From the NCBI RefSeq assembly GCF_018977255.1, contig NW_024704751.1:14198001-14262000 (forward strand): a stretch of DNA of 64,000 bases. Direction: 5' to 3'. A program made the position numbers. This stretch comes from Callorhinchus milii (lineage: Eukaryota). Below are positions 1 to 6,000 of this stretch, piece after piece. Each line of letters starts with the position of its first letter. Positions within the stretch are counted from its first letter, which is position 1.

Positions 1-3000
1 ATTTTGTGGGCTAAGGCGGGAGCCAATTGCACATAGACAGTCGTGGATTGAGTGACCCTATTATTATTTTTATTTAATTAAGTAAATATTTCCCAGACAT
101 GCTGTCAATGTTTTTCTCTGCCTGTAATAATAATAATAATAATAATAATAATAGAAAGGGGATAATTAAATGAAAGGAGTTGATCAGTTTGTGGTGGGAC
201 AGAATTGGATGGGTAAAGGCTATATAATATAATATAATATATATAACGTGTATTTTTTTAAAAATTATGGTGATTGACAATTCAAAGAACACCACTTGTG
301 GATGGATGTTGCAACACACCAGCAAATCCCGTGATCCTGCCCTCCAAACCAAAAGTAGGTGTGTGTTAACAGTGACGAGTTGGGTCTAAGTCTGGAAAGA
401 AGGAAAGCGTTTGACACTAGTCCCAACAGACTAAAAAAAAACGTTTCTCTTTACAATTAACACATCAGATCTCGATTTGTGATCAGGTTTTTTTTTCTTT
501 TTGTCTCTCTCTCTCTTTCCTTTCTTTCCTTGGCAATTCTCAGTAACTTGCAGCAAACTCGTTTAAGCTTAAAAAGTTGTGTGCTTCCCTTTCTCTTTCT
601 CGCTCTCGCTCTCGCTCTCTTGTCACAGGTAAGAAGATCTCACTCAGTTAAACCATGTCAGTGAGTCAGGTTTCGACTGTGGACAGAGTGGAGGCTTCAC
701 CAAAGAGCAACAAACCAGACAACACAGCTTTCACCCAGCAAAGGCTCCCGGCTTGGCAGCCCATTCTGTCGGCAGGTTATGTCCTCCCTCTGTTCATCGT
801 GTTTGGGTTGATATTTATTGGGATCGGACTCGGGTTACACTTCACTTCCAACAGCATCATGGAAAAACAGGTGAGTGAGTGACTAGTTATCTACCTGCCT
901 GCATATCTACCTTCCTACCTACCTACCTGCTCCTTCCCCTATCACTTACTTCCTGGTTCTTTGTAGCTAGATTATTTGTCTTTTCCCCCTCCCCCCACCT
1001 TCTCTTTGGAGCTAGGAGCTAATATTTAGGGTTTTTAACTAAATTTAGGGTTTTTAACTAAAGTTCTGGGTATTGCATCCACTTTTAGTCAGTTTCACGC
1101 GTTCCCGCAGTGACAAATTGGTCTTAAAGTTGCAGGATTTTTTTGTTTGTTTGTTTGTTTGTTTCCCCATTAAAAATGTCAGTGGCAAAGAGAACAAATC
1201 CTCACCTCCAAGGTTATCGGTCGTTATGGAGTCTGTATTGACCCGAAAGTAAAAGCAAACTATCCCAATGTTCCCAGATGCAGAGATGCAGAGTTGGGGT
1301 GTAATTTAATCCTCAGGCTGAAACCTTTTACATCCATTCCTACCATTTATTTGCTTAATCTTCAGTGGAGGCCAACCTTTTTGGTCAGGCGAGAAAATAA
1401 ATGTTCTTGATTTATGGCCACGGCATAAACATTGCCACTCAGTCCTGTAGCTCAGTGGTTAGAGCACTCGCCTTGCATGCGAGACACCTGGGCTCAATTC
1501 CAGGCAGGTCAGGGCGAAACCTTGGGCAAGTTTCCTTACTCCACACGCCTAATAATAATAATCCCTCCAAAAAACAAAACAATAATAAATTGGTCATTTC
1601 AATCCACGACTGTTTGTGGGACTGCTGTGCACAATTGGCTGCTGTGTTTTGCCCACAAATACACAGTCAATTCACTTTACAGCATATTCTGTGAAGCTCT
1701 TTGAGACGTCGAGACGACGTGAAAAGCGCTATATCAAATGCAAGGATTATTACTGTTATCACTGTAAAATAAATTGACTGTATATTTGTGGGCGAAATAA
1801 GATATCGCGCCTTATTGTGTCATTGAGATGTCTCAAAGCGCTTAACGGAATATAGTGTAAAGCAAATTAGTTGACTGTGTATTTTATGGGCGAAACGCGG
1901 CAGCTATTTGTGCACAGCAGTTTCCCACAAACAGTCATTGATTGAGTGACCCATTTTTTGGAGGGATTATTAGCTCCTGGAAGCGATCCGCAATCGACTA
2001 ACAACCAGGTTCTTACTTACTGCTGGGCAAACAGAGGTGCGTGGAGTAAGGAAACTTGTCTAAGGTTTTGCACTGTCGGGCAATTGAACCCAGGTCCTCT
2101 CGCTTGCGAGGCGAGCGTGCTAACCACTATGCTATGGAACTCCTCAAGTGTTAAGCATTAAGCGTCTGGTGCAAATGATATGATGACCCAGGAATTGTAA
2201 GGTGTAACCAAAAGTTTGCACTTTTCTGTTTTCTCCTAGATCGATTATACAGGTGACACAAGCGAGCATGCTTGCTACAATTGCAGTATGAATGCAAATA
2301 AGAACTGCAAATGCACAATAAGATTCACGGTGACCCAGATGATGAAGGTAATTAACTGAAGTCCATTCATATCTGAATAAGTAACTGCTCTTTGACTTCC
2401 AGATTTTAAAAAAATAATAAACTTTGCAGTTGATGTCGCACATTTAATGTGGGAAGGACATGTCAAAGCGCTTCACCGGACATAGCTGTAGGCGAACACG
2501 GCAGCTGATTTACACACATCTTACAAACAGACACAAAATGAATGACCAACTTTATCGGGGGGTTGTTGGGTGGGGCACTGGGAGAAACTCCCTTTTTTCG
2601 AGTAGTGCCATGGTATCCTCAACGCCCACCTGTACAGAATAACATCTCAACAACCACAACCTGTATCTACATAGTGCAGGGGCAGTGTCAGATGATGAGC
2701 AGTGAGAGTGGAGGTGAGAGGTGAGAGTATTGGTGAAAGAGGTGACCTCATCTGAAGGACCTCACTTCCGACAATGTAGTACAGAGGAACTGTCTGGTGG
2801 AGTGGCCAATAGACCTGACCATATGTCTGAGTACTTAACTGCGCAGCAGGACTAATGCTTTGTTAGTCAGAATGTAATGAGAATGGAAACCCTCTGCTTA
2901 AAGTTCTAACTTGTCGTCATCATCAAACCAGGCACCATCAATGTTCACTCACAGAGAATACTGTGTTTCTCTCTAGGGGCCCATCTTCATGTACTACGGA

Positions 3001-6000
3001 TTATCGAATTTCTTTCAAAATAATCGGAAGTACGTAATCTCCCGGGACGATATCCAACTTTTCGGTGATTTAGATAATTTCCAGGTAATGTCTTTCAAGG
3101 AACGGTAAAGCTCCAAACAGTTCAAACCGTGGAAATAAATGACTTCCTTCATCTCTGCTTCTCTGTTTTCTCAGAACCCTTCCAATTACTGTTTTCCATT
3201 TGTCCGAGACAGTCAGAAACGCCCAATTGTTCCATGTGGAGCCATTGCAAACAGCCTTTTCAATGGTGAGTTAATGAGTATTGTGTATCAACGGAGAGTT
3301 CATGTTTGTTCACTTTACAGTATACTCTGTGAAGCATCACTCGACTTGAAAATAATTACTGCAAAGCATTTTGAGGCGTTTCAATATAGTAAGGCACAAT
3401 ACAGTAAAACAGTAAGTATAAATCGTTGCATCACATATCTTTACCCTGAATGTTTTCTTCCAGACTCCTTCACCCTATATAAAGTCGGGAATGACAACAA
3501 TCGCTCTCAAGTTGTCCTGAAGAGCAAAGGAATTTCTTGGTGGACGGATTACAACGTCAAATTCAAGAACCCGGTTACAACCAACAATAACAGCGTTCTG
3601 CAGGCAGCATTTGATGGTAAGTTTCATTTGCTTATATGTTAAGTGGATCAAGATCCTCAACGTGACCTACAAAGCCCACTCTTCACCCATACAAATACTC
3701 CCACCCACCGACCCACCTCATAATGGCAACTCCAGCAGTCACCCCCCAAAGCATACTCTGGGATCCCCATGTTTTGGCTCTTGCCAACCTGCACCTAATA
3801 CTCTCGGGAAATAGGTAAGCAGGGTGTGTCCCTCCAGAGGGAGAGTGAGCATTCCATTCTAGACACTTGCAAAATTTCCATATGTATGTGGCATGCACGC
3901 AATAATCTATCTGGATAATAACAACAACAAGAAATTGCATTCATATCGCGCCAATCACGTCGGGAGGACATCCCAAGGCATTGGACAATGTGGGTTGGGA
4001 TCAGAGAGGGGTGGAGTGCAAGTGGGAGGGGGTGGAGGAGGGAAGATGACAGATTGCACGGTCAAAAAGGAAGGTCTTGAGACACACCAATGGGTTTCTC
4101 CATGTGTTGGACACCCAGCCGAGCAAAACCCAAAATGTTTGTTTGAGTGTGGTGCTCATCTCGGCTTATTTCGCCCACAGGGTATACAGTCAATTCACTT
4201 TACAATATATTCTGTGAAGCACTTTGAGACATCTCAAAGACGTGATAAGGTGCTGTATCAAATGCAAGGATATGATTATTATTATTTCTGCGGTCAGCTC
4301 GTTCCAAGGCCAATTCGATCAATTATCTCGATTCAATTCTAGGAACCGTCAAACCTTTGAACTGGCTTCGACCTGCCTACGAACTAGACACGAATCCCCA
4401 AAACAACGGCTTCCAAAACGAAGACTTCATTGTGTGGATGCGGATCGCGGCTTTGCCCACGTTTCGCAAACTCTACCGGCGAATCGATGAGGGACTGACC
4501 GTTGGGAAATACGACCTGGAGATAGCGTACAGTATCCTTGGAGACAGTGTAAACATAGAGGGGGTTGAGAGAGGGAGAGGGAGGGAGAGCTAAGATAACA
4601 GACCGAATCATATTGAAATGTTTCCTCCATCTCAATTATGATCGAACCGAGCTCATTTGCTAAAGTAGCTCAGGTTACTCTGCGTCCCATGACTGTGTTT
4701 GTTTGGAAGTCTCAAATGGAGTGGTTTCCAAACAGCATTCCTCCATAAGGAAATGTAGGGGGGGGGGGGGTGTGCGTGCGGAGGGAAGGGGAGAAGATAG
4801 ATTATGTCCTATAATCAGGGAGAGGTCCCTCATGCTGTCCCAGTGTGTCACGGGAACCCTGCACCGGAAACAGCTCACGAGATACAGAGAGAGAGAGAGA
4901 CGGCGGGACACAATACTACAATACTATGCATTTCCAGTTACTATATTGAGTTCAGCTAGGAACGTTGCATTTTACACCATGTTATTAAAGAGCAGGGTTT
5001 TGCCACTACACAGTGGGCCGTCCCCGGCCACTTTCAAAGAGTCACAGTGGGACCGCAGCCCAATTGGATTCACACCCCGCTGTGTAGGCGTCTGCAGGGA
5101 AACTGAGTCTCCTCCAGGTGTGGGGCAGGAGCAGGGATCCATTGTGACCCTTCTTAGCTCAACCCTGACAGCACTGTGGGATTCTCACGGTGACGTTTCA
5201 CCACGAGGTGAGCGAGTGCCTTGTACCGTACGGAAGGCTTGAAATGTCAGATGGATCCATCAGGTCTGTAAAGACATCCTAACAGCAAAAAACTTTGGCC
5301 TTGACCCATTGTATCCAGATTATCCGGTGCTGAGCTTCGACGGACGGAAGCACATAACGTTCAGCACGATATCCTGGATGGGCGGCAAGAACTCATTCTT
5401 GGGCATTGCTTACCTGGTGTGTGGGTCCCTCTGTGTTGTGACTGGCATTGTGCTGCTTATCGTCTATATCAAATACCAAAAACAGCACCACGGCTCTGCT
5501 GAATAGCGAGCTGCACAACGGCACCCAAATCGTTCTGCGATTAGTTCTACCTGTTGGACAGAAATAGCGAATTATCATGGAATGGTTATTAGAAATTAAC
5601 TCCTTATATGAAGCGTTTAAATTTTACTTCATCTTTTTGGGAATGAGAAGAGTGTCAGGTCTCTTTAATTTACCCGTCGCATATTTCCCAGTTGTGAACT
5701 CTGTATTGATTTAATTACATTATGAAAAAGGTGCTTCGAAACACATCCCAAATGACTGTGTCTTCTTGCAAATGTTAGTTAGTTACTTGAAAATGTTTAC
5801 AGCGATTGTTTTGCTCAGCAAATGTAGTCGGGTGCATTAACAAATTAGGGCTTGTGAAGGACCCTCTGGGTACACAGAGGCTGGAGCCAGAAGAGGTAAT
5901 AATGTTCCAGGAGTAAGACTGAGCACAATCACTAGTACTCGGTGGTGGAGGCGGGAGAATAATTCAGATCACTATCATTGATCTTATTGATCAATTATTA

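What the first reader, a model, noticed from the sequence alone, without database searches (positions are those of the whole stretch)
655..5506. Intron-containing TMEM30B-like gene: candidate parental locus of the intronless mammalian TMEM30B
Seen: seven coding exons with a TMEM30A-like layout but TMEM30B-type residues ([42 protein letters not shown]). Known (recalled): mammalian TMEM30B has a single coding exon and is not next to ZMPSTE24; TMEM30A is on the chromosome arm carrying the RLF paralogue ZNF292. Inference: this is the whole-genome-duplication copy on the RLF paralogon from which TMEM30B was retrocopied, with the parent later lost in the mammalian lineage.
Basis: partly seen in the sequence, partly recalled or inferred. 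Interest (0 to 1): 0.7.

Follow-up and report, generated by a model that had tools for sequence, protein, structure and literature searches.

The report
Seven-exon TMEM30 (CDC50) gene beside ZMPSTE24
This is an intact, intron-bearing gene for a lipid-flippase helper subunit, sitting next to ZMPSTE24 and RLF, and it probably marks the original home of the gene that mammals now carry elsewhere as TMEM30B.

Summary
Window 655-5506 (+) carries an intact CDC50/TMEM30-family gene: seven coding exons, 1053 nt (350 codons plus stop), all six introns GT..AG.

- **Family:** five of seven exon pieces hit Pfam CDC50 in colinear order. All seven hit human CDC50A and six hit CDC50B in the PDB.
- **Neighbours:** it lies tail-to-tail with ZMPSTE24, followed by a TMCO2-like gene and the giant RLF exon.
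- **B-type residues:** only partly borne out. Exon 7 is clearly B-like (78.8 vs 62.4 bits), exon 1 ties, and exons 2-6 score higher with human A. With only human A and B to compare, orthology cannot be rooted.
- **Literature:** TMEM30B is linked to KDM1A in elephant shark and gar, an ancestral chordate pair lost in human (PMC7530604). TMEM30B sits off its expected chromosome only in opossum and human, read there as a translocation in a stem mammal (PMC8040251). Neither mentions retroposition.

The retrocopy-with-parent-loss reading is therefore plausible and seems not to be in print, but I could not test it. No vertebrate sequence collection was open, and the joined protein was not made. It would be one more case of a known kind. 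Interest is modest.

The parts
655..870 (+). Coding exon 1 (72 codons, phase 0): start codon, cytoplasmic N-terminus with [16 protein letters not shown], and the first membrane helix (about nt 781-837)
   Evidence: Translation. In-frame TAA at 649-651 and donor GTGAGT. Hits human CDC50B at 8e-21 and CDC50A at 8.6e-21. Hydropathy peak 2.66 at residues 43-61.
2240..2347 (+). Coding exon 2 (36 codons): start of the exoplasmic domain, with four cysteines
   Evidence: Translation. AG/GT borders. Weak hit to CDC50A residues 80-112 (E 0.47), with IDYTG, four Cys and CTI.FT aligned; no CDC50B hit at E<=10. No Pfam hit.
2977..3084 (+). Coding exon 3 (36 codons): the [16 protein letters not shown] segment
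   Evidence: Pfam CDC50 4.1e-11, profile positions 54-85. CDC50A 42.2 bits, CDC50B 37.5 bits.
3175..3265 (+). Coding exon 4 (30 codons plus 1 base): two cysteines and PCGAIANS
   Evidence: Pfam CDC50 7.5e-07, profile positions 94-121. CDC50A 30.9 bits, with one gap; CDC50B 28.8 bits, without a gap.
3464..3616 (+). Coding exon 5 (2 bases + 50 codons + 1 base): the GISWWTDYNVKFKNP segment and two N-X-S/T sites
   Evidence: Pfam CDC50 1.9e-04, below the curated cut-off, profile positions 132-168. CDC50A 37.9 bits, CDC50B 28.7 bits. Sequons.
4343..4531 (+). Coding exon 6 (2 bases + 62 codons + 1 base): the [28 protein letters not shown] segment
   Evidence: Pfam CDC50 1e-15, profile positions 167-230. 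CDC50A 78.7 bits, CDC50B 67.6 bits. Donor is GTATCC.
5319..5506 (+). Coding exon 7 (2 bases + 61 codons + TAG): end of the exoplasmic domain, the second membrane helix (about nt 5414-5470) and a short C-terminal tail
   Evidence: Pfam CDC50 1e-18, profile positions 232-285 of 286. CDC50B 78.8 bits, CDC50A 62.4 bits. Hydropathy peak 2.69 at residues 32-50.
12859..19931 (-). Context: ZMPSTE24 coding region, convergent with the CDC50 gene (about 7.35 kb between the two stop codons)
   Evidence: Pfam Peptidase_M48_N 3.2e-12 (15483-15779) and Peptidase_M48 1.8e-06 (13999-14340). Human ZMPSTE24 chains hit at 1.2e-27. The HELGHW exon and the last coding exon were read; exon 1 with its ATG. The end coordinates are approximate.
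21557..21922 (-). Context: exon of a TMCO2-like gene lying between ZMPSTE24 and RLF
   Evidence: Pfam TMCCDC2 (PF15844) 1.4e-10, above the curated cut-off.
33434..38887 (-). Context: giant open frame of 1817 codons of an RLF-type zinc-finger gene
   Evidence: Pfam TPR_Rlf 3.1e-53, zf-C2H2_ZN292 3.1e-12, zf-C2H2 4.8e-15. It is called RLF rather than ZNF292 only because ZMPSTE24 and TMCO2 are its neighbours; the human gene order is recalled.

Best explanation

The protein has a short cytoplasmic N-terminus and a first membrane helix (exon 1). A cysteine-bonded, glycosylated exoplasmic domain follows (exons 2-7). A second membrane helix and a short tail close it (exon 7). By family knowledge it would pair with a P4-ATPase, allow it to leave the ER and take part in its transport cycle. 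That function is inferred, not shown.

The gene sits tail-to-tail with ZMPSTE24 in a ZMPSTE24-TMCO2-RLF block. I read it as the whole-genome-duplication copy of TMEM30 on the chromosome-1p-type paralogon. I also read it as the same gene that databases call TMEM30B in elephant shark and gar.

Mammalian TMEM30B would then descend from this lineage. It would have reached its present place in a stem mammal, most likely as a retrocopy, after which the intron-bearing parent was lost.

Shown: the gene model, the family and the neighbours. From print: ancestral linkage to KDM1A in shark and gar, and relocation in mammals. Inferred: orthology to TMEM30B, retroposition and parent loss.
For: Gene and family:
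- Seven in-frame exons with 6 of 6 GT..AG introns, 350 codons.
- Pfam CDC50 on 5 of 7 exon pieces, colinear over profile positions 54-285 of 286.
- Human CDC50A and CDC50B are the top PDB hits for the exons.
- Strong hydrophobic peaks occur only in E1 and E7.
- The 4 + 2 exoplasmic cysteines align with those of CDC50A.

Place:
- ZMPSTE24, a TMCO2-like gene and RLF follow on the opposite strand.

B affinity:
- Exon 7 scores 78.8 bits with CDC50B against 62.4 with CDC50A.
- AFTQQ, LSA and FIG.GLGL match B, not A.
- The exon 4 loop aligns to B without a gap but to A with one.

Print:
[quoted passage not shown] This is one of 25 ancestral pairs not conserved in human (PMC7530604).
- TMEM30B is one of five curated ohnolog families whose chromosome mismatches are in opossum and human only, read as a translocation in a stem mammal (PMC8040251).
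Against: - Summed best bit scores favour human CDC50A (342.4) over CDC50B (317.8). Exons 2, 3, 4, 5 and 6 each score higher with A, and exon 2 has no B hit at E<=10.
- In exon 1, 6 columns agree with B only and 6 with A only.
- These comparisons measure branch lengths among three sequences and cannot root the tree, so they neither prove nor disprove orthology.
- TMEM30C was not available for comparison.
- KDM1A is not in the window.
- That mammalian TMEM30B has one exon, and the human gene orders, are recalled rather than tested.
- No expression data exist here.
Confidence: 0.6

Rival explanations
1. The gene is a fourth duplicate of the TMEM30 family that has no descendant in mammals. Mammalian TMEM30B would then come from another source, for example a retrocopy of TMEM30A or TMEM30C.
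For: Five of seven exons score higher with human CDC50A than with CDC50B, and the summed score favours A. No tree was built. The window does not show KDM1A.
Against: Exon 7 and several exon 1 positions are B-like. The gene called TMEM30B in shark and gar lies at an ancestral locus near KDM1A (PMC7530604). TMEM30B fits its paralogon chromosome in five non-mammalian species (PMC8040251). KDM1A and RLF/ZMPSTE24 share a chromosome arm in human (recalled), so a second TMEM30 copy on that paralogon is not expected.
Confidence: 0.15
2. The gene is the TMEM30B orthologue, but mammalian TMEM30B moved by a DNA-level translocation and lost its introns separately, not by retroposition.
For: The only printed interpretation I found speaks of a 'gene translocation' (PMC8040251). 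The string 'retro' occurs 0 times in that paper's main text.
Against: Loss of all six introns together with a change of chromosome is what retroposition produces in a single step. This rests on established knowledge of retrogenes and on recalled exon counts for mammals; it was not tested here.
Confidence: 0.12
3. The gene is the orthologue of TMEM30A or TMEM30C.
For: Higher summed similarity to human CDC50A. Seven coding exons, as recalled for TMEM30A.
Against: The neighbours are ZMPSTE24, a TMCO2-like gene and an RLF-type gene, not those recalled for TMEM30A or TMEM30C. The exon 7 score is 16 bits lower for A than for B.
Confidence: 0.08
4. The gene is an unexpressed or decaying copy.
For: There are no expression data. 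The promoter and any 5' untranslated exon lie outside or at the edge of the window.
Against: There are no in-frame stops or frameshifts across 350 codons. All splice sites are canonical. The family's cysteines and membrane helices are kept.
Confidence: 0.03

Closest known systems
Human CDC50B / TMEM30B (PDB chain 7vgh_A, in complex with ATP8B1)
   Same: Same family and topology. It is the best hit for exon 7 (78.8 bits, 38 of 57 aligned residues identical by my count) and ties for exon 1 (36 of 53). It shares AFTQQ, LSA, FIG.GLGL, and GSLC..TG..VYI.YQ.
   Different: This gene has seven coding exons and lies beside ZMPSTE24. The human gene is recalled as single-exon and on another chromosome. 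Exons 2-6 score lower with B than with A, and exon 2 has no B hit at all.
Human CDC50A / TMEM30A (for example PDB chain 6k7g_C)
   Same: Same family. It has the highest score for exons 2-6. The exon 2 and exon 3 pieces align end to end with residues 80-112 and 116-147. All six exoplasmic cysteines align.
   Different: Different neighbours (recalled). Exon 7 scores 16 bits lower than with B. A has a one-residue deletion in the exon 4 loop and six extra residues in exon 6 relative to this gene.
'Orphan' retrogenes and retrogene replacement (Ciomborowska et al. 2013, PMC3548309, passages read; Maeso et al. 2012, seen only as a reference)
   Same: The proposed history is the same: a retrocopy takes over and the multi-exon parent is lost, breaking an old gene neighbourhood.
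   Different: TMEM30 and CDC50 occur 0 times in the main text of PMC3548309, which lists 25 cases. The retrocopy step for TMEM30B is inferred here, not shown.

Membership tests
CDC50/LEM3 family (Pfam PF03381) | Match to the family profile over most of its length | tested here: met
   Five of 7 exon pieces match colinearly over profile positions 54-285 of 286. Four of the five exceed the curated cut-off on their own.
CDC50/LEM3 family (Pfam PF03381) | Two membrane helices flanking a large exoplasmic domain | tested here: met
   Hydropathy peaks of 2.66 (E1 residues 43-61) and 2.69 (E7 residues 32-50). No other exon piece exceeds 0.46. Both peaks align with the ends of the human CDC50A and CDC50B chains.
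CDC50/LEM3 family (Pfam PF03381) | Conserved exoplasmic cysteines (disulfide-forming in solved CDC50A structures; that role is recalled) | tested here: met
   Four Cys in E2 and two in E4 align with the Cys of CDC50A.
CDC50/LEM3 family (Pfam PF03381) | Binds and supports a P4-ATPase | not testable with these tools
   The joined protein was not made, so no fold or complex prediction was run.
TMEM30B (CDC50B) orthology group | Groups with TMEM30B in a rooted phylogeny that includes A, C and outgroups | not testable with these tools
   The protein and contig collections that hold vertebrates were closed. Only human A and B were visible, in PDB alignments, and PDB sequences could not be retrieved.
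TMEM30B (CDC50B) orthology group | Residues that set B apart from A | tested here: inconclusive
   Exon 7 is B-like by 16 bits. Exon 1 has 6 B-only and 6 A-only columns. Exons 2-6 score higher with A. Shared states may be ancestral.
TMEM30B (CDC50B) orthology group | Same locus as TMEM30B of non-mammalian vertebrates (near KDM1A in shark and gar) | tested here: inconclusive
   The window holds ZMPSTE24, a TMCO2-like gene and RLF, but it ends 654 nt upstream of the ATG, so KDM1A cannot be seen. The linkage comes from PMC7530604; its supplementary table was closed.
TMEM30B as known in mammals | Single coding exon (recalled) | tested here: not met
   There are seven coding exons here. This is the point of the finding, not an argument against common descent.
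TMEM30A orthology group | TMEM30A-type neighbourhood (recalled) | tested here: not met
   The neighbours are ZMPSTE24, a TMCO2-like gene and RLF.

The most novel reading that the evidence does not exclude
Mammalian TMEM30B is an 'orphan' retrogene. It would have been copied in a stem mammal from the seven-exon gene that still sits beside ZMPSTE24 (and, in shark and gar, near KDM1A) in other vertebrates. The parent was then lost, which ended an ancient chordate KDM1A-TMEM30 neighbourhood by retrogene replacement.
Probability: 0.55. Interest if true: 0.45.

Novelty: new member of a known kind. Interest (0 to 1): 0.35.

Why it matters
If true, TMEM30B joins the short list of genes whose retrocopy replaced the parent. 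It would also supply a mechanism for two printed but unexplained observations: the loss of KDM1A-TMEM30B linkage in human, and the odd chromosome of TMEM30B in mammals.

It would mean that mammalian TMEM30B acquired new regulatory surroundings. That bears on how far its expression, and its pairing with ATP8B-type flippases, can be compared between mammals and other vertebrates.

It changes nothing about how CDC50 proteins work.

Tried and rejected
- **Per-exon comparison with human CDC50A and CDC50B:** I hoped this would settle A versus B. It cannot, because three sequences give branch lengths only. In exon 1, A and B are each 36 of 53 identical to this gene and 31 of 53 to each other.
- **Retrieving PDB sequences by their u-numbers:** I wanted them for a four-way comparison with yeast Cdc50. 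The call failed with an id error and I dropped it. As a result, the CDC50B states at QNNR and WWTDY, and the outgroup states, stayed unseen.
- **Second, intronless copy in the window:** tblastn of 8 stored exon pieces found only self-matches below E 0.001. The best other hit was E 0.007, over 31 residues at 16012-16098, which I take as chance. The rest of the genome was not available.
- **Pfam on 10 open frames (nine between 57.8 and 62.5 kb, one at 8.2-8.7 kb):** 0 of 10 matched at E<=0.01.
- **Literature search for 'Tmem30a' with 'seven exons' or '7 exons':** none of the 10 listed papers held Tmem30a, so the TMEM30A exon layout remains recalled.
- **Not used, with reasons:** structure prediction, fold search and complex prediction would need the joined protein. 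The ESM Atlas tool's own description says not to use it for known families. Genome contigs holds bacteria and archaea only.
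Full report
**What is there.** On the + strand between 655 and 5506 lie seven coding exons: 655-870, 2240-2347, 2977-3084, 3175-3265, 3464-3616, 4343-4531 and 5319-5506.
- They add up to 1053 nt, that is 350 codons and a TAG.
- Intron phases are 0,0,0,1,1,1. All six introns start GT and end AG after a pyrimidine-rich tract, and are 90 to 1369 nt long.
- An in-frame TAA sits three codons' width upstream of the ATG.
- The three split codons read D (exons 4/5), G (5/6) and N (6/7).
- The window holds no N, and I do not take it for human.

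The joined protein was never assembled, searched or folded, so there is no whole-protein search, structure model or complex prediction behind this report.

**Family.** Pfam CDC50 (PF03381) matches five of the seven exon pieces, in order, over profile positions 54-285 of 286. Exons 1 and 2 have no Pfam hit at E<=1.

Against PDB chains, exon 1 hits human CDC50B (8e-21) and CDC50A (8.6e-21). Exon 2 hits only CDC50A (E 0.47), but IDYTG, four cysteines and CTI.FT are aligned. Exons 3-7 hit both, at 1e-6 to 1e-21.

Strong hydrophobic peaks occur only in exon 1 (residues 43-61) and exon 7 (residues 32-50). The four cysteines of exon 2 and the two of exon 4 align with cysteines of CDC50A.

The gene is therefore an intact CDC50/TMEM30 member. 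Reviews describe these proteins as the beta subunits that most P4-ATPase flippases need. They report CDC50B pairing with ATP8B1, ATP8B2 and perhaps ATP8B4 (PMC3645723 and PMC4937031, passages). That function is inferred for this gene.

**Surroundings.**
- The gene is convergent with ZMPSTE24, whose coding region runs from about 19931 down to about 12859 on the - strand. Evidence: Peptidase_M48_N 3.2e-12 and Peptidase_M48 1.8e-06; human ZMPSTE24 chains at 1.2e-27; exons read.
- Next comes a TMCO2-like exon (PF15844, 1.4e-10; 21557-21922, - strand).
- Then comes an open frame of 1817 codons with TPR_Rlf (3.1e-53) and ZN292-type fingers (33434-38887, - strand).
- RLF-TMCO2-ZMPSTE24 is, by my recall, the order on human 1p34.2. 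That is why I call the zinc-finger gene RLF and not ZNF292.
- No second CDC50-like sequence is in the window.
- The window begins only 654 nt before the ATG, so the promoter and the upstream neighbour are unseen.

**A or B?** Best bit scores per exon, human CDC50A / CDC50B:

| Exon | CDC50A | CDC50B |
|---|---|---|
| E1 | 76.3 | 76.4 |
| E2 | 14.0 | none at E<=10 |
| E3 | 42.2 | 37.5 |
| E4 | 30.9 | 28.8 |
| E5 | 37.9 | 28.7 |
| E6 | 78.7 | 67.6 |
| E7 | 62.4 | 78.8 |
| Sum | 342.4 | 317.8 |

In the 53 aligned columns of exon 1, my count is:
- 30 columns identical in all three sequences;
- 6 shared with B only;
- 6 shared with A only;
- 1 shared by A and B only;
- 10 different in all three.

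Small length characters lean both ways. The exon 4 loop aligns to B without a gap and to A with one. The exon 2 region has the length of A, while B is longer there (coordinates).

The main point is that three sequences have only one unrooted tree. These numbers say that this gene sits on a short branch, and that human B has changed more than A in the exoplasmic domain. They say nothing about who is sister to whom. TMEM30C and outgroups were not available to me.

**What print adds.**
- *Touceda-Suarez et al. 2020* (PMC7530604; passages read) list KDM1A/TMEM30B among 25 ancestral chordate gene pairs that are not linked in human. They report the pair linked, with at most two genes between, in C. 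milii and L. oculatus but not in chicken.
- *Lamb 2021* (PMC8040251; passages read) curated ohnolog families in gar, reedfish, Xenopus, zebra finch, chicken, opossum and human. [quoted passage not shown] The string 'retro' does not occur in that paper's main text.

Taken together, the gene named TMEM30B in non-mammals lies at an old locus on its expected paralogon, and the mammalian gene does not. By recall, KDM1A and RLF/ZMPSTE24 share a chromosome arm in human. The gene in this window is therefore most simply that same non-mammalian TMEM30B.

**Is the retrocopy idea in print?**
- TMEM30B with 'retrogene': one paper, where the words are unrelated.
- TMEM30B with 'intronless': none.
- A looser search on retrocopy terms listed 20 of 1,307 papers, none holding TMEM30B. 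This is weak evidence of absence.
- The 'orphan retrogene' paper has 0 mentions of TMEM30 or CDC50 in its main text (PMC3548309).
- Further searches brought no evolutionary treatment beyond the two papers above.

Within this library, the relocation is noted but the retroposition and parent-loss mechanism is not. Genome databases very likely already annotate this gene; I could not check them.

**Verdict.**
- Its core steps were not testable here: orthology to B, a single exon in mammals, retroposition and loss of the parent.
- I put the layered claim at about 0.6.
- It would be a further example of retrogene replacement, a known kind of event, in a gene family whose biochemistry is well understood. 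Interest is therefore modest.

**Left unchecked.**
- No vertebrate sequence set was at hand, so there is no phylogeny, no exon counts in other species and no genome-wide search for an intronless copy.

Noticed in passing
window 1441-1750 (+), 1790-2150 (inverted copy), 4170-4290, 6010-6120, 7370-7780, 20472-20890, 24268-24324: A family of interspersed repeats with tRNA-Ala-like heads (SINE-like) fills introns 1 and 5 of the CDC50 gene, its 3' flank and other places. Rfam calls tRNA at three sites, and ARAGORN calls tRNA-Ala (tgc) at two. Intron 1 holds two copies in inverted orientation.
   Followed up: partly
window 6314-6417: A G-rich tandem repeat of a 16-nt unit, about 6.4 copies, lies roughly 800 nt downstream of the CDC50 stop codon.
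   Followed up: no
window 19110-19807: Tandem arrays of period 61, 68 and 138 nt, G-rich on the + strand, lie directly inside ZMPSTE24 intron 1 next to its first exon. They give a GC skew of 0.499 for 18001-20000 and long spurious proline-rich open frames.
   Followed up: partly
window 27851-28225 (+) and 21557-21922 (-): Besides the TMCO2-like exon on the - strand, there is a coiled-coil-like open frame on the + strand with a weak DUF5531 match (E 0.014). The TMCO2-like piece also hits that family (1.8e-05). This may be a second, diverged TMCO2-like gene between ZMPSTE24 and RLF.
   Followed up: no
window 590-630: A long CT-rich tract ending in CAG at 627 looks like a splice acceptor just upstream of the ATG. 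If so, a 5' untranslated exon and the promoter of the CDC50 gene may lie outside the window.
   Followed up: no
window 56000-58000: A GC-rich stretch (GC 0.586) with simple repeats lies upstream of the RLF-type gene on the - strand and is perhaps its promoter region. Nine open frames between 57.8 and 62.5 kb gave no Pfam match.
   Followed up: partly
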